Source: a phage
Length of the DNA stretch: 64,000 bases
NCBI GenBank assembly: GCA_024682255.1
Contig: GCA_024682255.1_4716.1
Strand: one strand, 5' to 3'
Shown: piece by piece, positions 50,620 to 64,000 of the stretch
Numbering within the stretch: position 1 is the stretch's first letter
How the letters are laid out: the number at the start of each line of letters is the position of its first letter
The notes under the pieces: generated by a model
Seen by the model: only the letters and a program-made list of their open reading frames with translations
What the model was told of the DNA's origin: nothing
Database searches by the model: none
Program-made: the position numbers and the translations under genes

Positions 50620-52692
50620 ATGAGGCTTAAGAATAGCACGCCTCGCGCGATTTTTACGGGCTTTAAAGAGGGTCTTACCACGGATCCGGTTACAGCCCCA
50701 GAGATCACGCCCATTCACCTCCCGTATGTTTTCATTCAGGGTGGTCGTGGTAAAGAGGACACCTTGCTGTTAACAGGGGACGCCCTGTCTACAGTCTACG
50801 GTGAAGATATGCTGAACTACCGCAGTAAGTACGCTTCTCCAGCAACACTGATTGCTCGCCAGGCTGCTTCTACAGGTAGCGCGATCTTCACAAAACGTTT
50901 GGTTGCACCGGATGCAACGGCAGCACGCATCCGTATCGGTGTTGAAGTGGTCGCCGATAAACTGGTCGTTTACCAGCGTAACGCTGACGGGTCTTTCAAA
51001 AAGGACACCGGCGGCAACAAAATCCCTGACGGCGATAAAACCGTTGACGGGTTGAAAATGCGTTGGGTTGTTAACCACGACAAAGATGCCGAAACACCGA
51101 ATGCTTTCGGTAAAGATGAAGTGGTTCTCGGACAACTGACTGCAACAGGTGGTGCCCAGAGCAACTACTATCCTATTCTGGATGGATTGGTGAGCTGGCG
51201 TGGTGCTGACGGGGACAACATCGGCTTACGTCTGGAAGCACCGACCGCGCTGAGCAGTAACCCTACCCGTACCGATATTATCGAACGCATCGGTGCTTTC
51301 CTGTACCGCATTCAGTTCGTGGAACGCAAGTCTTCACGAACTGCGCCGACGGTCATTCGTACGATCGGCGGTATGGAACAAGAAACCTTCGCGTTGCAGG
51401 AAGGTGTTATCCAGCCTGATGACGAAACCGATCTGTCCTTCGGTAAAGTGGTCGTTGATGCCTACGAGTATAATGAAACGGGTAACACCCCAATCTTTGC
51501 TCCAATGGATCAGATGCATCTTTATCAGAAGAACATCGATGACGTCGTCAAGATGCTGTACGAATCTGAAAGCAAAGTTAACAACGATCTGTTAACCGAC
51601 GTCGAATTCGTCGAAGGTCAGATGAACATCTTCACCGGTGTCGATTACAACGGCATTCCGTATCAAACCATCGAAGTTCTCGATGCGGATCAGGGCGGTG
51701 CTATCTTCGACGGTACCAGCACCTTCTACGCGATCGATGGTAGCGACGGCGACGTCAGCTGGGATACCTTCGATGCGTTAGCGAAGCAGCAGTTCGAATC
51801 GTTCGGCAACATGGGCGAAGATCTGGAAGACATGGCTTTCTATCCGTTCTCTATCGTGTATGACATTGGTTACAAAGTCGACACGAAGAAAGCGATGGCA
51901 AACGTCTTGTCTCTGCGTCCGGATGTCATGATCATTGCGTCAACCCATACCTGGAAGGGTGTGGAACTGAATGTCGATGAAGAAAGCTCCATGGGCGCGA
52001 TGCTGCGTAACTACTATCGTCTGCATCCAGAAAGCGTGCTTTACAATACCCCAGCCTGTCGTGCTGCCGTATTCATGCAATACGGGGAGAGCATCGAAGC
52101 GCCAAGCCTGGGTAAAGTTCCGTTGACGCTGGAAGTTGCTAATAAACTCGCAACTTACATGGGTGCTTCGGATGGTGTTATCCGTGGTACTCGCATCGAT
52201 AACAACCCTGGTAACGTTGTCACAACGATGCGTAAAATCAACAAGACGTATCGTAACGCAACGGTCCGTGATCGTGATTGGGAAAACGGCTTGAACTATG
52301 TTCAGACCTACAACCGTAATTCCAACTTCTTCCCGGCTTGGGGCACGATCTACAATAACGACCGTTCGGTATGGCGTTCGTTGATCAACGTGATCATCGG
52401 TTGCGATCTGACTCGTGTCTGCTATCGTCTCTGGGCAGAAACCACCGGTACCACAGGAATGGATGAAGCGCTGTTCCTGAAACTGATGGGCGAACGCTTC
52501 CTGGAATACACCACGGGCCGTTACAACGACCATGTGACTGTTAAGGGGCGTTTCTACCTGGATAAAGAAGACGGCTATAACGGCTTCAGCTATCACGGCG
52601 ATATCAGCCTGATCGGCGATCCAGGCATGACCGTGGGTACGTTTACCATCACCGGGCTGCGTCGTAACACCGAAGCAGCAGAAGCGGCGTAA
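50620..52692 (+). CDS. putative tail sheath protein
   Basis: 690 aa; AAGGAGAG RBS; strong highly-expressed codon bias; immediately followed by a roughly 300-aa gene (sheath/tube arrangement) and a strong terminator. Assignment rests on size and context only. Confidence 0.5.
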   Translation: MRLKNSTPRAIFTGFKEGLTTDPVTAPEITPIHLPYVFIQGGRGKEDTLLLTGDALSTVYGEDMLNYRSKYASPATLIARQAASTGSAIFTKRLVAPDATAARIRIGVEVVADKLVVYQRNADGSFKKDTGGNKIPDGDKTVDGLKMRWVVNHDKDAETPNAFGKDEVVLGQLTATGGAQSNYYPILDGLVSWRGADGDNIGLRLEAPTALSSNPTRTDIIERIGAFLYRIQFVERKSSRTAPTVIRTIGGMEQETFALQEGVIQPDDETDLSFGKVVVDAYEYNETGNTPIFAPMDQMHLYQKNIDDVVKMLYESESKVNNDLLTDVEFVEGQMNIFTGVDYNGIPYQTIEVLDADQGGAIFDGTSTFYAIDGSDGDVSWDTFDALAKQQFESFGNMGEDLEDMAFYPFSIVYDIGYKVDTKKAMANVLSLRPDVMIIASTHTWKGVELNVDEESSMGAMLRNYYRLHPESVLYNTPACRAAVFMQYGESIEAPSLGKVPLTLEVANKLATYMGASDGVIRGTRIDNNPGNVVTTMRKINKTYRNATVRDRDWENGLNYVQTYNRNSNFFPAWGTIYNNDRSVWRSLINVIIGCDLTRVCYRLWAETTGTTGMDEALFLKLMGERFLEYTTGRYNDHVTVKGRFYLDKEDGYNGFSYHGDISLIGDPGMTVGTFTITGLRRNTEAAEAA

Positions 52693-52707
52693 TGAGAGGA
52701 GTCCATA

Positions 52708-53598
52708 ATGCGTCCTGATAATACCCTACTCGGTGAACAGGGTGTTGGTGCTCTTAGCAACGCGGCTATGGTCGATATTCGTGCGGGTGCCCAAAACGGG
52801 TACATCAGCAATATCGGTACGTACGTTGCTAACGCCAACTACATTCCGAACCAAATGTTCTGTCTCCTGCTGGAGGCACCACGTGGTTTCAACTATCTGC
52901 CTAACCCGGATGTACAGATTGGTTATCTGAAGGCGCTGGTAGAAGAGGTTGCGCATTCGATTACCGGTCTGCAACGCGGATTGGAAGTTGAATTCGTTAG
53001 CGTCCCGGTTTCTGGTTCCGGTGAAATCCAGGAAGAAGTCTCTGACGTTAAACGTCCTCGCTCTAACCCGACTTTCGGGATCTATGAGAAAGAAGGTCGT
53101 TCCGTTAGTTACTTCCTGGAACAATGGATCACGTATCTGTTGATGGATCCGGATGCCAAATATCCGATGTTGTCGTCTATCGTATCCACCGGTGGTCCAA
53201 CCGACCTGCTGGCGGATTATCGTAGCGCAACAATGCTGTTCGTTGAGCCAGACCGTCAACACAAGAAAGTGGTTAACGCCTGGCTGTGCACGAACATGAT
53301 GCCTCACGGTACCGGTGACTGGACATCACGTCGTAACAAGAACGATGCGCCAAACGTGGTAGAATTGAGCATTCAGTTCACCGCGTTAACACAGACCAAC
53401 TACGGCGTGCGTGCTTTTGCACAACGTCTGCTGGATAAGATGAACCTACTCAAAGTTAACCCGGATTTCCGTCCGGCTTATCTGAGCGACATCGATCCGG
53501 CTGTGGCGGCGCAGAAGGTTGGCTATACCTTCGACTTTGATAACAACGATACCTTTGAGGTACCGAATACTTATCAAAACGTAACACCTCGCGTGTAA
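52708..53598 (+). CDS. putative tail tube protein
   Basis: 296 aa; GAGAGGAG RBS 15 nt after sheath stop; same codon bias; followed by hairpin plus T-tract. Confidence 0.45.
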   Translation: MRPDNTLLGEQGVGALSNAAMVDIRAGAQNGYISNIGTYVANANYIPNQMFCLLLEAPRGFNYLPNPDVQIGYLKALVEEVAHSITGLQRGLEVEFVSVPVSGSGEIQEEVSDVKRPRSNPTFGIYEKEGRSVSYFLEQWITYLLMDPDAKYPMLSSIVSTGGPTDLLADYRSATMLFVEPDRQHKKVVNAWLCTNMMPHGTGDWTSRRNKNDAPNVVELSIQFTALTQTNYGVRAFAQRLLDKMNLLKVNPDFRPAYLSDIDPAVAAQKVGYTFDFDNNDTFEVPNTYQNVTPRV

Positions 53599-53624
53599 CG
53601 TAAAAAAAAAAGCATATTAACCTC

Positions 53625-53661
53625 CCTTCCTTCCCTAGCCGTCAAGGCCGGGGAAGGAAGG
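53625..53661. terminator. bidirectional rho-independent terminator after sheath/tube operon
   Basis: CCTTCCTTCCC ... GGGAAGGAAGG stem; TTTATGGTTTATTTA downstream on plus strand, T10 on minus strand. Confidence 0.6.
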
Positions 53662-53673
53662 TTTATGGTTTAT

Positions 53674-54213
53674 TTACTGTGTGTTCTTAGCTTCACGAAT
53701 GAAAATAACATCAGGATATTCTTGAGATTCAATGAATTCAGGATTACGATAACGACGAATATGACGCATCGTTGTACAAGCAAGTTTGTAAAGATGTTCC
53801 TCCTCACGTTGTGTTAATAACATCAGTTGCGCGTCTGGGATCACGAATGGGAGTCTTTCATTCACATATTCCCGAAGGTCATCGAGATCATCGTGATGAA
53901 TGCCCTCTGAGAGCTTATATAACGCTTCCAGCAATTCTAATCCACCGAACTGGTAACTTCCTATTGTCGTCTTAAACAATGCGCCAGAACGCGTGGTGGA
54001 TGCTCTATCGGCGACATCGTATTGTTCTAACATATATCCGTAGACCATGCTACGTCGATCCAGGGTATCCGTAACGAGATTACGCCACCGTTCCAATCTT
54101 TCGAGCGCTTTGTCGATAGAGTAAACGATCATGCCATGTTCATCCAACTCTTCCGCAATACCCAATAGTTCATTGTTGTTAGGTTTTGCTGCACCGATAA
54201 GAAAAACACTCAT
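53674..54213 (-). CDS. hypothetical protein (179 aa)
   Basis: ORF in minus-strand array. Confidence 0.45.
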   Translation of the reverse strand: MSVFLIGAAKPNNNELLGIAEELDEHGMIVYSIDKALERLERWRNLVTDTLDRRSMVYGYMLEQYDVADRASTTRSGALFKTTIGSYQFGGLELLEALYKLSEGIHHDDLDDLREYVNERLPFVIPDAQLMLLTQREEEHLYKLACTTMRHIRRYRNPEFIESQEYPDVIFIREAKNTQ

Positions 54214-54626
54214 TACTCAAACTCCTTATTCCAAAACTCGATTAATGAATCGAGCTGTTCCTTACTGGTTATCTCACCTCCCCTAACAAAATGAAATCGT
54301 TCTTGAATGGCGATCTTTTCCAGGATATCGGTAAGCAAATGACGGTGACAGAAATTTCCTGCAGGACAATAACACCCTAACACCACAACCGGATGGGAGA
54401 ATAAAGCCAACCATTCCGGTGTATGATCAACAAAGCTTTTGCGCATAAGCGTGTAGTAGCCTGCGGTATATTCATCCTCGGTTAACGTTTTTGATTTGAT
54501 TCCTGTAACAAGTTCCCATGAAGGTGCGAAGAGCGGGTTACCTGTTTTCACCGTCGTGTCCAGTAGGAACGCTCGTGTGTCTGAAAGCCAACGATACTTG
54601 GCTAATTGAAGGGTGTATAAAAACAC
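54213..54626 (-). CDS. hypothetical protein (137 aa)
   Basis: ORF in minus-strand array. Confidence 0.45.
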   Translation of the reverse strand: MFLYTLQLAKYRWLSDTRAFLLDTTVKTGNPLFAPSWELVTGIKSKTLTEDEYTAGYYTLMRKSFVDHTPEWLALFSHPVVVLGCYCPAGNFCHRHLLTDILEKIAIQERFHFVRGGEITSKEQLDSLIEFWNKEFE

Positions 54627-54729
54627 AGCGCTAACCCCAAAGGATAAAAATAAAACCTTGACATAACCACCACCGCAACCCCATACAGGGCTACGGTGGG
54701 GTCATACAGAGAGACGTGTTAAGTTACAA

Positions 54730-55209
54730 TCAGTCTTTCAGCAGCTCAGCTGCATACGCACTGATGTTGTCGCGAATATGCTTAACCTGAGTTGTTGGGA
54801 AAGATTTCTTATACGCGGTGGTCAGGCGTCCGTAAACCTGTTTCTTCTCGTTAGAGCCGAAACCAACTTCAGCGCTACGTTGAACCGTTGCAGACACAAC
54901 GTCTTTGCCCAGCGGCAGGGTTACAGAAACAACGTCAACCTGTTTGTTATCCGCCATGAACTGCGCGCCAACGCGGCCAACCGCCAGACCGTGAGCCAGA
55001 CCGATATCGGTGGTCAGTTTCTGTGCTTTTTCCAGGATTTCTTTTTCTTCCGGTGTTACCAGAGTACCCAGGAAATCACTGCCCAGCTTCTGGCTACCAG
55101 ATTCGTCCAGTTTAATACCAGCGGCGATTTTATCAGAAAGAGCCTGAACTTCCGGACGTACGTTAGAAGTGGTTTCAGTCGCTACGGTGGTTTCTACAGC
55201 TTCAGACAT
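54730..55209 (-). CDS. abundant small protein (159 aa), function unknown
   Basis: Strong highly-expressed codon bias; TATATTAC motif about 124 nt upstream. Confidence 0.5.
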   Translation of the reverse strand: MSEAVETTVATETTSNVRPEVQALSDKIAAGIKLDESGSQKLGSDFLGTLVTPEEKEILEKAQKLTTDIGLAHGLAVGRVGAQFMADNKQVDVVSVTLPLGKDVVSATVQRSAEVGFGSNEKKQVYGRLTTAYKKSFPTTQVKHIRDNISAYAAELLKD

Positions 55210-55325
55210 GTTAATACTCCAATTAGTTTTTTCGATCGATCAAAAGGATAAAATCAGAAGATTGTTTCTTCATAGGGAAAACACAAGTCGGTTAAGGTTT
55301 ACTTCTTAAACTCCTTGCGTTCTAT

Positions 55326-55344
55326 CAGTTAGGTAATATAGACC
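55326..55344 (-). promoter_or_regulatory. putative phage early promoter (TATATTAC core)
   Basis: Minus-strand GGTCTATATTACCTAACTG about 124 nt upstream of ATG 55209. Confidence 0.4.
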
Positions 55345-56145
55345 TCAACTTTTTTCCAATAATGCCGCAACGTTCCGCGCGAAACGAATCACCTTGTAAT
55401 TGCGGGTCTGTTTGATATCTTCTTCCCCATCATTGTCACCTTCGGACGGATCTTCCCACATGAAGTCTTGTTCATCTGCTTTCTGTAAGTAGCGGTATAA
55501 CTGCACCATACTGCGTGCGGTCGGAGAGATAGCGCGAAGCTCATCCAATTCTTCATCCGTCAACAGAACGTGCGGTGAACGCAGTGGTTCCATTGTCGTA
55601 TTACACAACAGACGAATCAGCAGATCGACACACGGAATAACAGAACCTGGCGATGCGATTTCTGGATGTAACGTATAACCCCAATATACGGTGTTAAAAT
55701 ACGTCAAAACAGCAGGTAGTGACGGATGTTCCATCGCACGACCAATTTGTTGTCTTACGATAGATGCACGATCGTTCAACACATCGAAAGTAATCTGCTG
55801 CGGTTCCATAACCGCAAGTGAAATACCGTACGCGTCAGCCACGCCCAGGATTTCATGAAGGGTCGAACGTTCTTCTTCGGCGGATATTGTCCCGATTGCC
55901 TTACGTCCTGCAAGGTCAATCAGCATCGGTGAAACAGCTTCTTTAACCGCATTAAAAGAAGCCTGGTAAGCGTGTTTATGAATATACAGTGTCCACGCTA
56001 ATGCGCGCTCAGCCGCATGAAGCAGATCGACATAAGACAGTTCTTGATGGCATGGGCCATACACACTCACAGCAAGCTTGGTGGCTTTCTCAGAGGCTTG
56101 CATAATAACATCTGGTGATTTAGGCATATCGCGTTCTTCTTGCAT
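55345..56145 (-). CDS. hypothetical protein (266 aa)
   Basis: ORF in minus-strand array. Confidence 0.5.
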   Translation of the reverse strand: MQEERDMPKSPDVIMQASEKATKLAVSVYGPCHQELSYVDLLHAAERALAWTLYIHKHAYQASFNAVKEAVSPMLIDLAGRKAIGTISAEEERSTLHEILGVADAYGISLAVMEPQQITFDVLNDRASIVRQQIGRAMEHPSLPAVLTYFNTVYWGYTLHPEIASPGSVIPCVDLLIRLLCNTTMEPLRSPHVLLTDEELDELRAISPTARSMVQLYRYLQKADEQDFMWEDPSEGDNDGEEDIKQTRNYKVIRFARNVAALLEKS

Positions 56146-56427
56146 CTTTTTAAATTCCTACTTAACAATAAAGTTCATATACGGCGTATGTATCCGTAGA
56201 ATAATGGGTTCTGGTAAGATCTTACATCAAAATGACGGCATAAAAAGTACCTCCTTACCCATGTGGGTAAGGAGGTTCGTCCATCACGACGAAAGGACGT
56301 TATGTGACGCGGTGTCCATAACGGCCCTGGTAGCAGGCATTAAAGATAACAAAAAGGATGTAAGTTGAGCTAAACCACCTAAATACGGTAACGATTACTT
56401 CCGTACACAATATAACGCAACATCTTT

Positions 56428-57237
56428 TTACCAATGATTAAAGCTGCCCGCTTTAACGACGTCGCAACGCAGATGGTTACGTAACTGATCCAGGAAGACA
56501 ACCGGACTGTCGCCAGACAACATGGCCAGCGCGTGTTGACCACCGGAACGAACAACAAGCTCATCAACCATTGGTGCTGTGATCGGGAGATCGTACGCAT
56601 CCATGATTGCTTTGGCTTCCTGTTCTACGTCTTTCTGGAACCCTTCCATCGTCGGAGAGTCATATTTGGTTGCAAACTCGATCCCAGGTAAGTTAACGTA
56701 ATCGTAAGTCATGACACGGGTCATAACACGACGGCGTTCACGCTGCCAGATCTGAGGATCGGTTAACGCGCGAACAGAAAAACACACGTTCACCAGCGGC
56801 GTTTCAAAATCTTTACGTAATGGATCACCGTACGGTCCGCAAGGAATAACATCCCCCATCACCATCACGACAGGACGCCCACGACGATCACGTCCAGCTT
56901 CTTCTAACCAAATCTTAGAAAAACAATGGCTTACCTTCGTTTCTTCGATTCGTAATGCTCGCTGCAAAAAGCTGGTTGCATCCTGACCGATCTCTGGTTT
57001 AGGGTGACCGTATTCACCTTTCAACGAACGATTGCGTGCGTTTGTTTGCAGTAAGCTGTTTTCCAGGAACAGCGGTTTCGAACGCTCAAGTTCGTAATAC
57101 TCTTCGGTATTGTTAAAACAGTTAAATCCGCCTATAACACAGGTGTAGGCACCGTCAGCATTAGGACGGATAATACCTTTCTTATTCACACCAAGATAAC
57201 TGGTGCAAACAAGATTACTAATTGGTGGTTGCATCAT
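56428..57237 (-). CDS. hypothetical protein (269 aa)
   Basis: ORF in minus-strand array. Confidence 0.5.
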   Translation of the reverse strand: MMQPPISNLVCTSYLGVNKKGIIRPNADGAYTCVIGGFNCFNNTEEYYELERSKPLFLENSLLQTNARNRSLKGEYGHPKPEIGQDATSFLQRALRIEETKVSHCFSKIWLEEAGRDRRGRPVVMVMGDVIPCGPYGDPLRKDFETPLVNVCFSVRALTDPQIWQRERRRVMTRVMTYDYVNLPGIEFATKYDSPTMEGFQKDVEQEAKAIMDAYDLPITAPMVDELVVRSGGQHALAMLSGDSPVVFLDQLRNHLRCDVVKAGSFNHW

Positions 57238-57316
57238 AACCCCTTTATAAGCAACTGAATGAAAAAAGCGTTACATTCCCGCTTTTACGTCAAGAAGGTG
57301 ACGCGTAAGCGTTATA

Positions 57317-58048
57317 TCACCATTCATACGATCCGGCGCACTGATGCCCCAATAGTACCAACGCGTCGTCTTTGGCAGCTAGGTATTTTTCTAACGTTAT
57401 CCGTGAAACAGACACATTAGAGAAATCCATCACGCCTAAGCGATGATCGTAATGGTTAATTTGCATCCGGTAATAACCTTTCTTTACCACCAGAAACTCG
57501 CCTTGACGCAACCATAGCGGAACGTTGTCAACCTCCGCATGGATATAAAACACCGGACATTCTGTCGTAACAGAGTTTTCCTTTCCATCGCTATCTGTAA
57601 TTTTCCCTTTGGGAACAGCCGCGATAAAACATTCTCCGATACGCTCGGTTTGATACCTGTTTGGATAACGCGGATCGTGAAATAACCAGTGCTCATCGCT
57701 AATATCAACATCGGATAATAACGTACGATGCGGACGTAGGGCGATATCAAACGGAACACGATAAATAACGTACCCGCCTAACCAACGGGCTAAGTGACCA
57801 CCGGAATAGTACTGCTTGATTGCGGTACTGTAACCGTATATACAACCCATCAAACTGCTGGATACACAGATCCTTGGAAACGACCCGTCTTCCATACGCA
57901 AGGTACGTTGAGGGATACGCGGCATCATCGTTTTCAGTTCGGTGTCGGTGCTGATATGCAATAAACCGAAAGGAAGCGTTTTACTCGGTACCCACGCGCA
58001 ACGTTCCATGATCGCTCTTGGGACAATAGTCTCGATAGACGATAACAT
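57317..58048 (-). CDS. hypothetical protein (243 aa)
   Basis: ORF in minus-strand array. Confidence 0.5.
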   Translation of the reverse strand: MLSSIETIVPRAIMERCAWVPSKTLPFGLLHISTDTELKTMMPRIPQRTLRMEDGSFPRICVSSSLMGCIYGYSTAIKQYYSGGHLARWLGGYVIYRVPFDIALRPHRTLLSDVDISDEHWLFHDPRYPNRYQTERIGECFIAAVPKGKITDSDGKENSVTTECPVFYIHAEVDNVPLWLRQGEFLVVKKGYYRMQINHYDHRLGVMDFSNVSVSRITLEKYLAAKDDALVLLGHQCAGSYEW

Positions 58049-58049
58049 A

Positions 58050-58760
58050 TCACCCCCTCAGAATCGCTTCTGTTTCGCTGATCGTATCCGCAGGATAAAC
58101 CAAACTACTATCGATTGCGTTATTCACGTAACCACCCATTAAGTTGGTGATGGTGTTTGTACCGCTATCGATAATGTTTCGTAATCCGATGTCGATGGCT
58201 TTTAACGTACTGCGTTCTTCATCCGAAAGCAAACGCCACGCTCGACGACGATCGTTGGGGTCACGTGTGGTGATAGACGCCAGAACAGAATAGATGCTGC
58301 TGTCTGCGTTCAATTTAACGCCAGCCAATTTCGCTGACGTATAGAGCAGCTGATATTTTTCTTTCTCAGTGTACCACCATGGCACCTTACCGAGCGTATA
58401 GATCTCGTTATACATCAGCCATGGGAAAGAGTTTCGCATCACGACATCGGTCGACACCAACACCGTGTCGCCGGGAAGAAACACAAATTCATAAAACGGC
58501 TGACCATCCATGGTAATTTCACGGATGTCAGACGGGTCGATATGGAGCTGGGTCAATGCGTGGCTGACACCATACTGTCCATCAGGAAGAATAATCGGGC
58601 AGCACGCACAAACCCGGTTCTCACTCCCGATGATAGATAAACCCAATCCCTCGTAACGGACGGGTGTCAGAATCGAACACCCGCCACGAGTAACAACAGA
58701 TTTATCTTCTTGTATGTCCCAGTCCGCAAGCACCGCAGCACCGTTGCGGACAAGCGCCAT
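58050..58760 (-). CDS. hypothetical protein (236 aa)
   Basis: ORF in minus-strand array. Confidence 0.5.
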   Translation of the reverse strand: MALVRNGAAVLADWDIQEDKSVVTRGGCSILTPVRYEGLGLSIIGSENRVCACCPIILPDGQYGVSHALTQLHIDPSDIREITMDGQPFYEFVFLPGDTVLVSTDVVMRNSFPWLMYNEIYTLGKVPWWYTEKEKYQLLYTSAKLAGVKLNADSSIYSVLASITTRDPNDRRRAWRLLSDEERSTLKAIDIGLRNIIDSGTNTITNLMGGYVNNAIDSSLVYPADTISETEAILRG

Positions 58761-60284
58761 TTACACCTCGCTAATCTGGATAACGTAAAGCTGCTGGGCC
58801 ACGTAATCGGTGGTCAGATGCATCGTTGCGATGGTCGCTGCTTCGAACACCGTGAGTTCAGGACGTTCACGCATAATCAAATCGATCTCGTCGATGAGAC
58901 GGTTAACGCCTTGAGCGTCTTCGTGATGCATCGTTTTCACGTAGAGCGTACGGAAATACTGCTGGAAATTAGCTACGTCGGTATCGGTAAGGTTAGCAAC
59001 TTCACCACGCACAATTTCCATGACCTTCTTACGGGTATCTTCATCGAGGTCTACCGTAATCAGGTCAGCAAATACACCCTGCAATGCCAACGCATATGCA
59101 CGTAAGCGGTTTGCGGCTTGCTGGCTGGCTTTCATGTTGATGTAGTTACGGTAATGCTGCATGAAGCCCGCACCGTTAGCCAGCAGTTCATCTTTACTGA
59201 TGAGTTCACGTTCTAACAGCACAGCTGCGGTCAGTGCTTCCGGCGAACCACCTTCTTGCAGATAACCCATGTAGACGTCTGCGTTAACGAAAATCGTCAT
59301 CGTTGACGCGTCTTCAGCACGTTGAATCTGAGAAGCTGACGGTGCAGAAAGAATCAGTTCACCACGCTCCATACGCAGGATACGATCGCGACCGACGCGG
59401 GCCATCCCGTTGATCGCCGCAGCGCGAGCTTGTTGCATTTTAGCACGGTAGTTTTCAAGCATCATGTCGTTGCCGTCCTGGATATCTTCCAGCAGGTTAA
59501 CGGCCCACATATAGCAGAGGAATGCAGGAGTTGCCGCAGCGCGGGAACCGTGGAATGCAACGTTATCGCTATCCGGATATGTAATCAGATAAGCGGTGTT
59601 GTTCGAAGAAGGAGCAGAACCACGGAAGAAATAGTTGTAGATGTCTTCCAATGCCTGATCGCTCATCCCTTCCGTTGCTTGCTGTACAAAACGATCCAGG
59701 TTTTCATTACCGGTATACAGCAACGTACGCAGCTTATCACCGGTGATAAACGCAAGCTTTCCGGTTGGGGTGAAATCGTTATTAATCGAAATCAAGCCGT
59801 TGAGATCGTAATCGCTAACTAATGCCTGGTACTCTTCGGAGTTATAAAACTCAGGATAGTAACTCAGACTTACTGTCGGGATCAGTTTCGGTGCCAGGAT
59901 GATCGAATCAATGCGTTTTTCCAGTTCCGGGTACAGCGCACGGCATTTCGGCAGGATGGTATTACGCGCCAACTCTTTGGCATACACCACTTTTTCCACC
60001 ACGTCTTGAACTGCGGTCTGTAAAACTTCATCGTGGATATAAACCTCGCGTTCGCTGGCAGGTGCTACAACGCCATCTTCGGTTTCATCAAGTGTTTCAG
60101 CAACAACCATACGTTCAGCACTAAGCTGCACCAACGCATCCGCATCTTCCGGCGGCTGGTTCCAATGCATGGTTTCACAAACCGCGGCTAACGGCGTGCC
60201 CGGAATGGCTGCGACGATTTGGTTACGTTTGATAAACCCTTCGACAATGGGCTCAACGGCATAAACGGTTTTATTGGTGATCAT
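58761..60284 (-). CDS. hypothetical protein (507 aa)
   Basis: Long ORF in minus-strand array. Confidence 0.5.
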   Translation of the reverse strand: MITNKTVYAVEPIVEGFIKRNQIVAAIPGTPLAAVCETMHWNQPPEDADALVQLSAERMVVAETLDETEDGVVAPASEREVYIHDEVLQTAVQDVVEKVVYAKELARNTILPKCRALYPELEKRIDSIILAPKLIPTVSLSYYPEFYNSEEYQALVSDYDLNGLISINNDFTPTGKLAFITGDKLRTLLYTGNENLDRFVQQATEGMSDQALEDIYNYFFRGSAPSSNNTAYLITYPDSDNVAFHGSRAAATPAFLCYMWAVNLLEDIQDGNDMMLENYRAKMQQARAAAINGMARVGRDRILRMERGELILSAPSASQIQRAEDASTMTIFVNADVYMGYLQEGGSPEALTAAVLLERELISKDELLANGAGFMQHYRNYINMKASQQAANRLRAYALALQGVFADLITVDLDEDTRKKVMEIVRGEVANLTDTDVANFQQYFRTLYVKTMHHEDAQGVNRLIDEIDLIMRERPELTVFEAATIATMHLTTDYVAQQLYVIQISEV

Positions 60285-60517
60285 TACTGCGCTCCCTCCA
60301 ACGCATTACTACCTACGGGTTCTTTGGTTTCCAGACGGCTGTTTAAGCGCGCAGCAACCGCATCTTCCAATCCCAACGGCATAACCTTTTTGTTCACGTC
60401 AGGATCGGCGGCATCATTACCAACGGTTTGACGTACGACCTCAGCAACCAACGTTACCGCGTTCGTCAGCGCAACAAAGCTCGCTGCCCGAGCCGTGTTA
60501 AGTTGTTCTTGGTTCAT
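60284..60517 (-). CDS. hypothetical protein (77 aa)
   Basis: Short ORF. Confidence 0.4.
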   Translation of the reverse strand: MNQEQLNTARAASFVALTNAVTLVAEVVRQTVGNDAADPDVNKKVMPLGLEDAVAARLNSRLETKEPVGSNALEGAQ

Positions 60518-60592
60518 TCACTTTTCCTTTTAATGTCAGAGCATCGCATTCTTGACGTACGTCAAGAAGGTACTGCGTTCAGCGAAATAAAC

Positions 60593-60618
60593 GAGCAGGG
60601 GCATGACGCCCCCTGCTC
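60593..60618 (-). terminator. terminator hairpin after beta gene exon 2
   Basis: GAGCAGGGGC-ATGAC-GCCCCCTGCTC immediately after stop, T-rich flank. Confidence 0.5.
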
Positions 60619-61769
60619 TTATTTAGCGTCGTTAAAGTAAATATCAACAGCTCGTTCCGTTGCGTAGAGGAGACCAAGATTCACAGTCCCAACCACTTCC
60701 GGTGAACCGATGATACGGTTAGCGATACTGGTGCCACTGAAGATAGCATCAAGGGTGTGCCCGTCTTCGGTTTTGTTCACACCATGACCCACGGAAGAGA
60801 CAACGGATTTCGCTTGAGCTGCGAAGGTACCTTTATCACCCATCCCCGCACCAAGGTCGTAACGCATGAAAATACGGATGGCGATCTGGTTCTCGCCTAA
60901 CGGATTACCGTCTATTCTCACGTTACTGTTATTGATACGCCCCGTTGTTGCTTCGTTGAGTTTCAGTTCCTTAACGCGTTTAGCTCGTGCTTTATCCGCT
61001 TCACCGACGAGCGCTGCCATGGTTTCACTCATATCCTCAATCTGAGCGCGGTACAGTACATCGATCTGTACAACTTCACCATGAACGTCAGCACGTGGGT
61101 TATACTGACTCATACGACGTAATGCTTCAACGGCTTCCTGACTCTCATCACTCAGATCGGTTGCAATCGGTTCTTCCAGTGTTGCAAGGATCGTTCGAGG
61201 TTCAACGTGATCGCCGATTTTCACGAGACCGCGAATGTTGAGATGGGCGTCAACGATAAGCGTACGGCTCTTAATCGATGGTGTTACGAGACGATCGGCA
61301 AGATTGTCGAAGATATACGAACTGTCCTCGTGGGTCTCTGGAATATCCAGAATACCGACAAGAGACAGCACGCCTGCGCGCCAAACAACCTGACCTGGGT
61401 TCCACCAGTCGCGTTTAAAATAAAGACGATGGAAAACCACCACATCCTGATCCTTAACGCGATCCCCGACTTTATAATCGGTAATGAGATCGTGAGGATA
61501 ATACTTACCTGGTCCTTTCCCGATTATCGTACCGAGCTGGAAAACCTCTTCCCCTAACTCTGGATCGTCGTACTGTATCGTCAGCGCAGTTTTGGTGACC
61601 TTCTTGACAACACCATCGCCTTGGGCGGCAGCTGCGAAGAGTTTACCAACACGATGCGCGATAACAGTCTCACCGCCGGTGCGCCACGGTTGTACATCGT
61701 AACCTTCAGCAGCAATCATGCGGTTGTGCTGTATACCTATAAATACCAATCTCTTGGGCGAATTTAGTT
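60619..61769 (-). CDS. RNA polymerase beta-like subunit (second beta gene), exon 2 / middle segment
   Basis: VGILDIPETHEDSSYIFDNL ~ E. coli [33 protein letters not shown] ~ SGTVIDVQVFTRD; IAIRIFMRYDLGAGMGDKGTF...SVVS ~ [29 protein letters not shown]. No ATG at ORF start (annotated start is TTG), frame open back to 61770; 5' boundary approximate. Confidence 0.6.
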
Positions 61770-62261
61770 CTTATTCAACATAATCGTACTATTACCAGAA
61801 TAAGACTGAGATTAGATTGTTCAGATAAGGTCGTTGCTTGAAACGATCGTTTCAGCGCTCATCTTATCCCGGAGGCGACGATAGGCACATCACCTCCCGC
61901 TTGCGCTCTCACGCAAGAGCAGACTATATCACATCTCGTTTCAAACGGTGCTTCTTCAGCACCTCAACGAGAGTTCACTTCTTCCCAGCGCATCCAGCGC
62001 CATTCTCTTATCCAAGGAGAATGCCTCACTCGAGGGGTACAGGGGGATGAATCCCTTAGTCGTTGAACCTTTACCTTAGAACGCTTCACAGCGATCCTTA
62101 GGTACTTGGCTGCGGATTGTCCTTAAGCTATTATCTGTTTTTATACCATACCGTCTTTCTTTTCAGAATCCGTTTTGGTCGATAACAGCGATGGATGTCT
62201 TCGCAATTCAGTGAATCTCATCTACATGTCGCCACATAGACGGACCCTGCTATTAAAAGCG
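61770..62261 (-). ncRNA. group I intron C (ORF-less, about 0.5 kb) in beta gene
   Basis: Minus-strand core elements in order: P TGAATTGCGAAGAC (62197-62210), Q AATCCGCAGC (62109-62118), R GTTCAACGACTAAG (62055-62068), S GATATAGTC (61922-61930; P7 GACTA/TAGTC); sits between two beta-homologous ORFs that are consecutive in the beta alignment; exact splice sites not resolved. Confidence 0.6.
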
Positions 62262-64000
62262 TTAATCATCTCTATCAGCAGCAGGTACTGCAAGTGCTGA
62301 TGTACTCATTATTGACGAGCTACCATCCGTTTTCTCGTCGTAGGGTTTCGTTTCACCGTATACAGACACAATGTTTGCGTTAGGTGCAAGGTAAGCAGAG
62401 ATACCTACGTCCCCACTATCCTTCGTACCTTCGGATACAACACCAATGTCCGACTTGTCGTATTCACGATCGCGTGCGCGTCGAAGCGATGTCTTTGAAC
62501 GACCCCCAATACCGGTCATCGTCGCTTCTTCACCCTGCTTGATATCCAGCATCGGGTTGGTTTCATCGATCACGATGGAAGCACTGTCGTCGAGAATTTG
62601 GTTCCAGACACTTACCGGACTGATTGAGATTTTCTGGCGATTTCCTTGACTGCTGTTCTCATTCTGACGAATAGCGCCAACCAGATCCTTATACACCAAT
62701 TCAGCGAACTTATCGTACGTTTTAAAACGTTGGTAGTTCACATCGTTCGTGTTAGGAGCCCAATCATCCAGAAGCAATTCAACAGCACGCAGTAACAACA
62801 TGGCGAAATCGGTAGGTTCTCCCATGTTCTGCAGCAACATACGGCTTACCGGATCAACGAAAAGACGCTCCATGAGTTCAAGTTCGCGTAAATGACGAAC
62901 CTTAAGTCCGGCACCATCGACAACGTTAAAATAGATATCTCGATTGTCAAAAGCGCCGCGAGCGTAACCAATGTAGTTACGGTATTCGTTAAACCCACCC
63001 AGCAACAACGTCGTCATGCGGTCGTCTTTACTGAAGATCAAACTTTCGTCGTCAAAGCTCACCGCGAATTCATCGGGTGCTAGACCCATACGAGAACCGC
63101 GAGGTACCGTACGATAGTTTGCTTTAAGATGTTCTAATAACGGGGTGAGTCCGCCCAGATAACTTAGAACAACACCGACCGGAATACGTACACCCATGAA
63201 TTCAAGATCGGCAGCTTCGATCGGCATCTTGGCCGCATTGATGCCGAAGAAATCAGGGAACGTCCCTACAGGTGTTGGTGTTTGTCCTGACTGACAGATA
63301 TAGAGCTGATTGCGTTTATCGATTGCTAAGAATTCACCCAGCGTGTTACGCGCAAACGTCAGGAGCCCTTCGGCTAACTGTTCGTTGAACCGATCTTCCC
63401 CAATGAACTCCGGTAGCGTTTTTATATCGAGACGTATATCCCAATCAGCAAATTGGATTTGGGTATAATTGCGCGCAAGCACAGCGAAGTAGTACGGAAC
63501 TTTGACAGCTGGATCAAAGACGTTACCACGTTTTAACGTGGTTAAGGGTGAGGACTTATCGTAATACATCGCTGTAAGTTGACGTGTTAGCCAACGACCC
63601 GCATTATTAACGACGCGCTCTGAACGTTTAACAAACACCTTACCGTAGGCGGTACTCAATGCAACTTCGGATGACGATACCTTTCTAATAGGTTTATCAA
63701 CACGTTGTTTACGCATCCGGTATTTGATGCCGTTAACGACATAAATGCCGTCCTTACGAACCTTCGGCAACATCACCGGGAACGTGGTCGGGACACCGCC
63801 TACAGGAGCCAGTTTAATCGTGATGACTTGATAATCCCCCATCACGTCAACGACATCTTCAACTTTATATCCCGTGACAGGGTAACCTGCCTGCTGTACC
63901 GCAACAACGGCAGCTGCGATGTCCTTTTGCATTACGTGTTCGACGTAATGTTTATCCCACACCGCGAGCGTCGATTTACATAAGCTCTTGTCGACGATAA
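62262..64000 (-). CDS. RNA polymerase beta-like subunit (second beta gene), exon 1; 5' end beyond window
   Basis: TGIGGRSKTSLRRARDREYDKSDIGVVSEGTKDSGDVGISAYLAPNANIVSVYGE ~ E. coli beta [52 protein letters not shown]; frame open to window edge (annotated start is GTG). Confidence 0.7.
   Translation of the reverse strand, partial: IVDKSLCKSTLAVWDKHYVEHVMQKDIAAAVVAVQQAGYPVTGYKVEDVVDVMGDYQVITIKLAPVGGVPTTFPVMLPKVRKDGIYVVNGIKYRMRKQRVDKPIRKVSSSEVALSTAYGKVFVKRSERVVNNAGRWLTRQLTAMYYDKSSPLTTLKRGNVFDPAVKVPYYFAVLARNYTQIQFADWDIRLDIKTLPEFIGEDRFNEQLAEGLLTFARNTLGEFLAIDKRNQLYICQSGQTPTPVGTFPDFFGINAAKMPIEAADLEFMGVRIPVGVVLSYLGGLTPLLEHLKANYRTVPRGSRMGLAPDEFAVSFDDESLIFSKDDRMTTLLLGGFNEYRNYIGYARGAFDNRDIYFNVVDGAGLKVRHLRELELMERLFVDPVSRMLLQNMGEPTDFAMLLLRAVELLLDDWAPNTNDVNYQRFKTYDKFAELVYKDLVGAIRQNENSSQGNRQKISISPVSVWNQILDDSASIVIDETNPMLDIKQGEEATMTGIGGRSKTSLRRARDREYDKSDIGVVSEGTKDSGDVGISAYLAPNANIVSVYGETKPYDEKTDGSSSIMSTSALAVPAADRDD

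What the first reader, a model, noticed from the sequence alone, without database searches (positions are those of the whole stretch)
61770..62261. ORF-less group I intron splitting a second RNA polymerase beta gene
Two ORFs that are consecutive in the beta-subunit alignment (Rif-region segment ending ...VSVYGE...DRDD, then a segment with the IPETHED and GDK regions) are separated by about 500 nt of non-coding DNA. The downstream ORF has no ATG start. On the minus strand the gap contains P (AATTGCGAAGA), Q (AATCCGCAGC), R (GTTCAACGACTA) and S (GATATAGTC) in order, with P7 GACTA/TAGTC.
Basis: partly seen in the sequence, partly recalled or inferred. Interest (0 to 1): 0.75.

Follow-up and report, generated by a model that had tools for sequence, protein, structure and literature searches.

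The report
ORF-less group I intron in virion RNA polymerase gene
A 506-base self-splicing-type (group I) intron without an endonuclease gene interrupts the virion RNA polymerase beta gene of a Goslar-like E. coli jumbo phage, at the same conserved Asp-Asp site as the known mobile intron of Pseudomonas phage PhiPA3; it is a real but fairly ordinary new member of a known kind.

Summary
Window 62264-61759 (minus strand, 506 nt) is a group I intron: Rfam RF00028 scores 56.3 bits against a gathering score of 50. All four P/Q/R/S strings are present. The canonical fold, including the P3/P7 pseudoknot, holds in four natural variants and shows compensatory changes.

Removing exactly these 506 nt gives one open reading frame, 98.5% identical in protein and without indels to the uninterrupted gp207 of E. 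coli phage Goslar. That gene is the PhiKZ gp178 homologue, the virion RNA polymerase beta subunit.

The insertion point (…DRDD|PKRLVF…) is the site occupied by the HNH-endonuclease intron of PhiPA3 (Birkholz et al. 2024), and by introns in Serratia phage 2050HW and Pseudomonas phage HPP-Temi.

Goslar-like genomes show the full allele series: no intron (Goslar), intron with a gp210-like HNH endonuclease (L008), and ORF-less introns (window, L002, L009). A diverged exon block from -120 to +30 marks acquisition by homing with co-conversion.

The one element not established is P1. The internal guide sequence pairing is weak and not better than chance.

Novelty: new member of a known kind; moderate to low interest.

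The parts
62265..64000 (-). Exon 1 of the virion RNAP beta gene (PhiKZ gp178 / Goslar gp207 homologue). Its 5' part runs off the window end. It ends ...AADRDD (GAUGAU).
   Evidence: In L002 the complete exon 1 is 1069 aa.
62262..62264 (-). In-frame UAA stop formed by the first three intron bases. Unspliced RNA would end translation right at the junction.
   Evidence: The same arrangement (GATGAT|TAA or TGA) is seen in L002, L008, L009, HPP-Temi and 2050HW.
61759..62264 (-). Group I intron, 506 nt, ORF-less. It starts UAACGC and ends AAAUUCG (terminal G = omega-G at 61759).
   Evidence: Rfam RF00028 56.3 bits. The 506-nt excess over Goslar gives exact ORF restoration. No ORF above 41 aa. MFE z-score -4.55.
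62238..62247 (-). Candidate internal guide sequence GG|GUC(C)GUCU (intron 18-27). GG would pair with exon 2 CC (P10). GUC(C)GUCU would pair with exon 1 AGAU-GAU (P1), with a U(-1)-G20 wobble. Inferred, weak.
   Evidence: G20 is the only G in the first 70 nt that gives the wobble plus further pairs and a P10. The duplex energy is not better than shuffles (19%).
62219..62242 (-). P2 hairpin with a GCGA (GNRA) tetraloop.
   Evidence: compensatory and one-sided changes in L008. The same hairpin with covarying stems occurs in PhiPA3 and HPP-Temi.
62211..62215 (-). P3 5' strand UUCAC. It pairs with GUGAA at 61978-61974 (pseudoknot).
   Evidence: C-G becomes U-G in two variants.
62111..62205 (-). P4 (62205-62200 / 62116-62111), P5 (62195-62193 / 62122-62120) and the P5 extension.
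   Evidence: compensatory changes in P4, P5 and P5a-c.
62067..62110 (-). P6 / P6a-c stem-loop.
   Evidence: two pairs with compensatory double changes.
62057..62061 (-). It pairs with UAGUC at 61926-61922 (within S). This is the guanosine-binding helix.
   Evidence: invariant.
61988..62055 (-). Four hairpins inserted between P7 and the P3 3' strand (P7.1/P7.2-type insertion, typical of subgroup IA).
   Evidence: Treated as an insertion by the Rfam alignment.
61934..61972 (-). P8 and P8a.
   Evidence: L009 has a 19-nt extra hairpin here.
61823..61917 (-). P9 (61917-61900), P9.1 (61897-61871) and P9.2 (61869-61823, with an inner 24-nt hairpin present only in the window and L009).
   Evidence: P9.1 has compensatory changes.
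61769..61805 (-). Terminal hairpin UCUUAUUC...GAAUAAGA, specific to the window allele.
60619..61758 (-). Exon 2 (379 codons plus stop). It starts CCC AAG AGA UUG = PKRL... and has no start codon of its own at this point.
61729..62384 (-). Co-conversion block: the intron plus about 120 nt of exon 1 and about 30 nt of exon 2. The exon parts are 28-43% diverged from Goslar, against about 6% background, and are shared with L002.

Best explanation
Window 62264-61759 (minus strand) is a genuine group I intron in the gene for the virion-packaged RNA polymerase beta subunit of a Goslar-like, nucleus-forming E. coli jumbo phage. The pre-mRNA is inferred to fold into the P3-P9 catalytic core. An external guanosine attacks after the U of ...GAUGAU. 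The freed exon 1 then attacks after the terminal G (…UUCG|CCC…). This joins …AADRDD to PKRLVFIGIQ… and gives one beta polypeptide of about 1448 aa. The intron sits at the same homing site, directly after two conserved Asp codons, as the PhiPA3 gp210 HNH-endonuclease intron. It is the endonuclease-less form of an element whose endonuclease-bearing form exists in a sister phage genome (L008). It entered this lineage by endonuclease-triggered recombination that also copied about 150 nt of flanking exon from a more distant donor. It can no longer promote its own spread, but its presence destroys the endonuclease target site. Shown here: the intron's identity, its boundaries, the structure covariation, the site homology, the allele series and the co-conversion tract. 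Inferred: actual splicing, the P1 pairing, the direction of endonuclease gain or loss, and immunity to cleavage.
For: (1) The Rfam group I model scores above its gathering score (56.3 vs 50 bits, E=1.3e-11, full model 1-253). (2) Goslar gp207 is continuous across the site. The window has exactly 506 extra nt. Removing 62264-61759 gives a 957-aa ORF (its 5' end is cut by the window) that is 98.5% identical to Goslar with no indels. (3) The intron follows a U and ends in G in all five intron alleles of Goslar-like, Pseudomonas and Serratia phages examined. (4) The canonical structure including P3/P7 is 99.3% paired across four natural variants, against 37-45% for slid controls. Six pairs show compensatory double changes there, and 13 in the RNAalifold structure. 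(5) Both exons are under purifying selection: 110 synonymous vs 11 non-synonymous codon changes in exon 1, and 41 vs 3 in exon 2. The 13 codons between the 3' splice site and the first possible start codon differ only synonymously between intron alleles, so they are translated as part of a larger protein. (6) The site matches PhiPA3 (…MNDD|MKRVGFISIQ), HPP-Temi (…TNDD|PKRINFVSIQ) and 2050HW (…TYDD|PKRVSFISIQ). (7) L008 carries the same intron with a 403-aa HNH/NUMOD ORF that is 36% identical (E=3e-56) to PhiPA3 gp210. The window intron is collinear with L008 from its second base onward. (8) The exon block from -120 to +30 is shared by the intron-bearing alleles and is 28-43% diverged from intron-less Goslar.
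Against: No RNA data are available, so splicing is inferred. P1 is weak: 3 contiguous pairs, or 7 with a bulged C, plus a 2-bp P10. Its duplex energy is no better than 19% of shuffled exons. The minimum-free-energy fold sequesters the candidate guide sequence in an extended P2 hairpin. Rfam's own P1 alignment is full of mismatches. ONT-cappable-seq did not detect splicing of the predicted PhiKZ introns under the conditions tested (PMC10914365), so predicted chimallivirus introns are not automatically spliced. The four variants used for covariation are closely related, and the tested structure was derived from the window sequence, which inflates the percentage paired.
Confidence: 0.9

Rival explanations
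1. The gene is truly split. The two ORFs are translated separately as two beta fragments, as happens elsewhere in PhiKZ-like RNA polymerases, and the intron-like RNA between them is a non-splicing relic.
For: PhiKZ-type RNAPs are known to be built from split beta and beta' polypeptides (annotation notes). The weak P1 could mean that splicing has been lost. An in-frame stop ends exon 1 exactly at the junction.
Against: Exon 2 has no conserved start codon. The window's TTG is replaced by CTC in L002, L008 and L009, where the first possible start is 13 codons further on and has no Shine-Dalgarno sequence. Yet those 13 codons are conserved in protein with only synonymous differences. Goslar encodes one continuous protein. 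The ribozyme core shows compensatory changes, so its structure is under selection. The break falls within a conserved motif next to a fidelity residue.
Confidence: 0.04
2. It is a group I intron that splices, but not on its own. Because P1 is weak and the guide sequence is sequestered, it needs a phage or host protein cofactor, or the conditions of the phage nucleus, to splice efficiently.
For: P1/P10 amount to only 3+2 contiguous pairs. An extended P2 hairpin competes with P1 and P3 in the MFE and consensus folds, and it is conserved in all four variants. Many group I introns depend on protein cofactors (general knowledge).
Against: The catalytic core is complete and conserved. Phage subgroup IA introns such as T4 td and nrdB self-splice in vitro despite short P1 helices (general knowledge, not tested here). 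No maturase-like ORF lies in or next to the intron.
Confidence: 0.12
3. The allele is a dead gene: an intron that cannot splice has inactivated the virion RNAP beta gene in a defective genome.
For: The window comes from an unknown source that may be a metagenome. Splicing is unproven.
Against: Four independent Goslar-like genomes of 183-238 kb carry an intron here with intact exons: the window, L002, L009 and L008. The synonymous to non-synonymous ratio is about 10:1 on both sides. The virion RNAP is needed for early transcription in this phage family (PMC11620839).
Confidence: 0.02

Closest known systems
PhiPA3 gp210 intron: a group I intron with an HNH nicking homing endonuclease in the vRNAP beta gene gp211/gp209 (Birkholz et al., Science 2024, PMC11620839)
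   Same: Same host gene (PhiKZ gp178 homologue). Same insertion point, directly after the two conserved Asp codons (GAUGAU|). Group I core recognised by Rfam (67.8 bits). The same GCGA-capped P2 hairpin sits just 5' of P3. The endonuclease of the sister allele L008 is 36% identical to gp210.
   Different: The window intron has no endonuclease ORF (506 nt against about 1.35 kb). Nucleotide similarity to the PhiPA3 intron is too low for blastn. The hosts differ (E. coli Goslar-like vs Pseudomonas). The first exon 2 codon is Pro rather than Met. The candidate guide sequence lies next to P2, whereas PhiPA3 and HPP-Temi have a better candidate (GUUAUUG) at the very 5' end.
ORF-less group I intron of Pseudomonas phage HPP-Temi (PP968062), unannotated
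   Same: Same site (…TNDD|PKR…). ORF-less. A stop codon follows GATGAT directly. Exon 2 starts with a Pro codon.
   Different: It is 334 nt long, belongs to the PhiPA3-like sequence lineage (76% identical to the PhiPA3 core), and has a clear 7-bp P1 with a 4-nt loop.
Endonuclease-bearing introns at the same site in Serratia phage 2050HW and relatives (Moabitevirus)
   Same: Layout exon…YDD|TAA – HNH ORF – ribozyme – PKRVSF… exon. The endonuclease is 36% identical to that of L008.
   Different: They carry the endonuclease and infect different host genera.
Phage subgroup IA group I introns (T4 td, nrdB, nrdD; SPO1 and Twort introns)
   Same: They interrupt a conserved site of an essential nucleic-acid enzyme gene. 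They have hairpins between P7 and P3', an in-frame stop soon after the 5' splice site, and mobility through an endonuclease with co-conversion of flanking exons (general knowledge).
   Different: Different host gene. This copy lacks the endonuclease. The phage separates transcription (in the phage nucleus) from translation, so ribosome-assisted folding as described for T4 cannot apply (inference from PMC12908238).

Membership tests
Group I catalytic intron (Rfam RF00028) | Covariance-model score at or above the curated gathering score | tested here: met
   56.3 bits vs 50, E=1.3e-11, model positions 1-253, window 62266-61900 minus strand.
Group I catalytic intron (Rfam RF00028) | Conserved core helices P3-P9, including the P3/P7 pseudoknot and the P/Q/R/S elements | tested here: met
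   All four strings found once each, in order. 100 pairs in 16 helices are 99.3% paired in four variants, against 37-45% for slid controls, with 6 compensatory pairs.
Group I catalytic intron (Rfam RF00028) | 5' splice site after a U that forms a U-G wobble with an internal guide sequence (P1), and P10 with the 3' exon | tested here: inconclusive
   The exon ends in U. Only G20 gives the wobble with further pairs (3 contiguous, or 7 with a bulged C) and a 2-bp P10. The energy is not better than 19% of shuffles.
Group I catalytic intron (Rfam RF00028) | Terminal guanosine (omega-G) at the 3' end of the intron | tested here: met
   The intron ends …UUCG| in the window, L002 and L008, …UCCG| in L009, …AAGG| in HPP-Temi and …CUCG| in PhiPA3.
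Group I catalytic intron (Rfam RF00028) | Precise removal restores a continuous gene that exists without the intron in a relative | tested here: met
   Goslar gp207 is continuous. Removing 506 nt restores the ORF at 98.5% aa identity with no indels.
Group I catalytic intron (Rfam RF00028) | Guanosine-dependent splicing of the RNA | not testable with these tools
   No transcript data. Needs RT-PCR or an in vitro assay.
Subgroup IA group I introns | Extra helices P7.1/P7.2 between P7 and the 3' strand of P3 | tested here: inconclusive
   About 78 nt with four hairpins lie between P7 (62061-62057) and P3' (61978-61974). No subgroup-specific model was available, so the assignment rests on this feature only.
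Mobile (homing) group I intron | Intron-encoded homing endonuclease | tested here: not met
   The largest sense ORF in the intron is 41 aa. Only the ribozyme-overlapping tail of the L008 endonuclease frame is alignable. The sister allele L008 does encode an HNH/NUMOD protein.
Mobile (homing) group I intron | Intron-plus and intron-minus alleles among close relatives, with co-conversion of flanking exon | tested here: met
   Goslar has no intron; the window, L002, L009 and L008 have one. The block from -120 to +30 is 28-43% diverged from Goslar and shared by the intron alleles.
PhiPA3 gp210-type intron at the vRNAP beta Asp-Asp site | Insertion directly after the codon homologous to PhiKZ gp178 D1072 | tested here: met
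   Window …DRDD|PKRLVFIGIQ vs PhiPA3 …MNDD|MKRVGFISIQ. The host gene is 41% identical to PhiKZ gp178.

The most novel reading that the evidence does not exclude
The endonuclease-less intron is kept because it protects the phage, not merely as a decaying selfish element. By occupying the Asp-Asp site of the virion RNAP beta gene, it removes the target of the gp210-type nicking endonucleases carried by co-infecting Goslar-like phages (the L008 type). This would shield the phage from the 'weaponised intron' interference shown for PhiPA3 against PhiKZ, without the cost of carrying the endonuclease. The conserved extended P2 hairpin that masks the guide sequence might additionally make splicing conditional.
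Probability: 0.25. Interest if true: 0.55.

Novelty: new member of a known kind. Interest (0 to 1): 0.3.

Why it matters
Goslar is a laboratory model for nucleus-forming jumbo phages, and its reference genome lacks this intron. The window and three public metagenomic genomes together show that natural Goslar-like phages carry all three states of the same homing site: empty, intron with a gp210-like endonuclease, and intron alone. This extends the PhiPA3/PhiKZ intron-endonuclease competition system to E. coli phages. It also provides a natural immune allele and a matching candidate endonuclease for testing. For annotation, the two 'RNA polymerase beta' ORFs should be joined into one gene. Beyond that, it is an expected kind of element at a known site.

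Tried and rejected
1. Rfam's own P1 assignment (ACGCUUUUA/AGGGUCCGU) was rejected. It is full of non-pairs, and the model's P1 5' strand should be exon sequence (compare the clean P1 of the other window intron).

2. Alternative splice-site registers were rejected. 5' after GAUGAUU, or 3' after CCCAAG, either break the frame, delete conserved residues, or end the intron in a base other than G (reasoned).

3. An A-U paired P1 (AUUAA/UUAAU, 5 bp) and an upstream CUGCU/AGCAG pairing were considered. They were rejected because they lack the U-G wobble and are not conserved in L002.

4. Pfam gave no hit for either exon protein. PHROGs and tblastn identified them.

5. blastn of the intron against the phage collection found no full-length copy, only core fragments in Vibrio phage pir03/C-ZP2022 and in Goslar's other intron.

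6. A scan of representative bacterial and archaeal genomes for a 28-mer of the intron found nothing.

7. Loci L006-L008 were not available to the Python sandbox. L008 was therefore analysed with the other tools and with pasted sequence.

8. Programmed bypassing, an intein and a group II intron were not pursued, given the covariance-model hit and the non-coding nature of the insert.

Full report
**1. What is in the sequence**

On the minus strand, an ORF ending …NIVSVYGETKPYDEKTDGSSSIMSTSALAVPAADRDD* (63962-62262) is followed about 500 nt later by an ORF running to 60619 that contains …LDIPETHEDSSYIF… and …GAGMGDKGTF…. PHROGs assigns both to the same RNA polymerase beta family, phrog_3148. They match consecutive profile positions 487-1050 and 1055-1420 of 1424, with E=3.9e-193 and 1.2e-118. 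Pfam found nothing.

P is at 62208-62198, Q at 62118-62109, R at 62068-62057 and S at 61930-61922. Elsewhere in the window, Q and S recur together only in the other group I intron.

**2. Covariance-model test**

An Rfam scan of the whole window gives two hits, both to RF00028 (group I catalytic intron). One is at 62266-61900 on the minus strand: 56.3 bits against a gathering score of 50, E=1.3e-11, covering the full model. The other is at 23041-22660: 54.8 bits.

**3. Boundaries from an intron-less relative**

The only close relative in the phage collection is E. coli jumbo phage vB_EcoM_Goslar, at 94% nucleotide identity. It matches in two pieces and its span is 506 nt shorter.

In Goslar the region is one gene, gp207, annotated 'RNA polymerase beta subunit', 1448 aa. 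Goslar reads …AVDRDD-G-KRLVFVGIQHNRM…. The window reads …AADRDD|[506 nt]|PKRLVFIGIQHNRM….

Removing window 62264-61759 yields a single ORF of 957 aa, with its 5' end cut by the window edge. It is 98.5% identical to Goslar and has no indels.

The intron starts UAACGC…, so an in-frame UAA follows the last exon codon directly. It ends …AAAUUCG. This gives a 5' splice site after U and a terminal G, as expected for group I introns.

Other splice registers either break the frame or end the intron in a base other than G. The same junction rule (GAUGAU| … G|CCN AAR) holds in every related intron examined.

**4. The host gene and the site are known**

The spliced junction peptide matches PhiKZ gp178 at 41% identity, and 293 phage records in total. 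gp178 is the beta subunit of the virion-packaged RNA polymerase.

Birkholz et al. (Science 2024, PMC11620839) showed three things about PhiPA3:
- PhiPA3 gp210 is an HNH nicking homing endonuclease encoded in a putative group I intron in the homologous PhiPA3 gene (gp211/gp209).
- PhiKZ escape mutations fall in the second Asp codon (D1072).

In the PhiPA3 record, exon 1 ends …SMNDD and exon 2 starts MKRVGFISIQ. The HNH ORF comes first and an Rfam-positive core (67.8 bits) follows it. This is the same position as DRDD|PKRLVFIGIQ in the window.

Two further occupied sites were found:
- Pseudomonas phage HPP-Temi has an unannotated 334-nt ORF-less intron (Rfam 70.5 bits, …TNDD|PKRINFVSIQ).
- Serratia phage 2050HW has an endonuclease-bearing intron (…TYDD|PKRVSFISIQ).

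Group I introns in chimallivirus RNAP genes are also mentioned in reviews and other papers.

**5. An allele series in Goslar-like phages**

Exact-word scans and a peptide scan recovered three more Goslar-like genomes.

- L002 (IMG/VR UViG_3300045988_173921) is collinear with window 51228-64000 at 96%. It has a 461-nt ORF-less intron at the same site.
- L009 (metagenome contig OGZS01000006.1, 237,972 nt) is 97% identical to the window. It has a 503-nt ORF-less variant with an extra hairpin in P8.
- L008 (IMG/VR UViG_3300011560_000001, 237,533 nt) has a ~1583-nt intron at the same site.

In L008, the intron contains a 403-aa ORF with NUMOD1 (34.4 bits, above cut-off), I-TevI-type DNA-binding and weak HNH_3 matches, and an HNH motif. 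That protein is 36% identical (E=3e-56) to PhiPA3 gp210.

The window intron is collinear with the L008 intron from its second base onward. What it lacks is the ~1.07-kb segment that holds the leader and the first 330 endonuclease codons. In L008 the endonuclease's last ~70 codons overlap P2-P6 of the ribozyme.

No ORF longer than 41 aa lies on the sense strand of the window intron.

The lineage therefore shows an empty site (Goslar), an intron with endonuclease (L008) and an intron alone (window, L002, L009). This is the classic homing cycle. Whether the window form arose by loss of the ORF, or the L008 form by gain, cannot be decided from these data.

**6. Signature of acquisition by homing**

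Against Goslar, the exons are about 6% diverged overall. The divergence rises to 34/120 nt in the 120 nt before the intron and 13/30 nt in the 30 nt after it, then drops to 0/30.

In a three-way comparison, the window and L002 share this diverged block, with 4 differences in the 120 nt upstream of the intron. Further out, L002 is identical to Goslar (0 differences in +120…+300).

The intron and about 150 nt of flanking exon therefore arrived together from a more distant donor. This is the co-conversion expected after endonuclease-induced repair.

**7. Evidence that the RNA structure and both exons are functional**

The intron's minimum free energy is -164.1 kcal/mol, with a z-score of -4.55 against shuffles.

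RNAalifold on the four Goslar-type variants finds 13 pairs with compensatory double changes.

A hand-built canonical structure covers P2, P3, P4, P5, P6-P6c, P7, four hairpins between P7 and P3', P8, P8a, P9, P9.1 and P9.2, with P3 and P7 written as pseudoknots. It is 99.3% paired, against 37-45% when partners are slid by 1-3 columns. Six pairs show compensatory changes, in P2, P4, P5, P6a (two) and P9.1.

Two caveats apply. There are only four, closely related, sequences. And the structure was derived from the window sequence.

Codon differences from Goslar are 110 synonymous vs 11 non-synonymous in exon 1, and 41 vs 3 in exon 2.

The 13 codons between the 3' splice site and the first possible start codon in L002, L008 and L009 differ from the window only synonymously (CCC/CCA/CCG, AGA/CGT, TTG/CTC). 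They are therefore translated, although no start codon precedes them. This argues for splicing and against separate translation of exon 2.

**8. What remains unresolved: P1**

Rfam's P1 alignment is poor.

Among all G residues in the first 70 nt, only G20 (62245) can form the U(-1)-G wobble with further pairs. G20-U21-C22 pairs with G(-3)A(-2)U(-1). With C23 bulged, G24-U27 pairs with A(-7)-U(-4). G18-G19 can pair with the CC that begins exon 2, forming P10.

This duplex is no more stable than 19% of shuffled exon sequences. The guide sequence is also buried in an extended P2 hairpin in the minimum-free-energy and consensus folds. The base of that hairpin is mutually exclusive with P3.

PhiPA3 can form a P1 of the same 3-bp / 1-nt bulge / 4-bp geometry (GUU[U]AUUG). 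HPP-Temi has a clean 7-bp P1 (GUUAUUG). These were read directly from the sequences and give only weak support.

I therefore treat P1 as inferred. I keep a 12% rival in which splicing needs a cofactor.

ONT-cappable-seq did not detect splicing of the predicted PhiKZ introns (PMC10914365). This is a reminder that RNA evidence is needed.

**9. Verdict**

The interpretation, an ORF-less group I intron splitting an RNA polymerase beta gene, is supported.

The element is not a new kind. It occupies the same homing site as the characterised PhiPA3 gp210 intron, and its endonuclease-bearing sister allele encodes a gp210 homologue.

What is new:
- It occurs in Goslar-like E. coli phages, whose reference genome lacks it.
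- It is the endonuclease-less form.
- All three site states are documented in one lineage, with a clear co-conversion tract.

The most interesting reading still open is that the ORF-less intron serves as an immunity allele against gp210-type endonucleases of competing phages.

Noticed in passing
window 23041-22660 (-), with ORFs 24307-23027 (-) and 22627-21644 (-): A second Rfam group I intron (54.8 bits). The upstream 426-aa ORF ends …GYNADFQFLQLNQ*, so the intron appears to sit inside the NADFDGD catalytic motif of a beta'-like RNAP subunit. The 327-aa ORF just downstream of the ribozyme core matches HNH_3 (25.7 bits) and is 28% identical to the L008 endonuclease, so it is probably an intron-encoded homing endonuclease.
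   Followed up: partly
L001 835-1263 (Goslar), L002 14878-14446; just beyond window position 64000: Goslar and L002 carry another group I core (67.7 and 64.9 bits) directly upstream of the gp207 ORF. It is preceded by gp206, a 490-aa HNH_3/NUMOD1 protein 'weakly similar to PhiKZ ORF179', and by gp205 (RNAP beta subunit, gp180-like). The layout gp205-[HNH+ribozyme]-gp207 resembles the PhiPA3 exon-[HNH+ribozyme]-exon arrangement. It suggests a further intron near the start of the same gene region, and the window phage probably has it too.
   Followed up: partly
window 62247-62213 (intron 18-52): An extended P2 hairpin pairs the candidate guide sequence GGGUCCGUCU with the intron-internal AGAUGAGAUUC, which resembles the 5' exon end AGAGAUGAU. 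The hairpin is conserved with one-sided and compensatory changes in L008. Its base competes with P3. It could be an alternative, splicing-inhibitory conformation.
   Followed up: partly
L008 2502-2700 and L009 vs window 62247-62067: The intron variants are mosaic. In L008 and L009 the 5' half of the ribozyme (P2-P6) differs from the window, by about 30% in L008 and less in L009. The 3' half (P7-P9) is about 98% identical. The exon 1 flank of L008 equals the window's, while its exon 2 flank equals that of L002. This suggests recombination among intron alleles.
   Followed up: no
window 61758-61756; L002, L009, L004 (HPP-Temi), L010 (2050HW): Most intron-bearing alleles (all those examined except PhiPA3) begin exon 2 with a Pro codon (CCC, CCA or CCG). 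Intron-less Goslar has Gly (GGA) and PhiPA3 has Met (AUG). The CC may be kept for P10 pairing, or it may travel with the intron by co-conversion.
   Followed up: no
L003 (PhiPA3) 3020-2973; GenBank annotation: The annotated PhiPA3 gp211 reads through the 5' splice site for 15 codons (…MNDD CYCLLNVCEVYTPML*). In HPP-Temi, a 39-aa 'hypothetical protein' is annotated inside the intron, which itself is not annotated.
   Followed up: no
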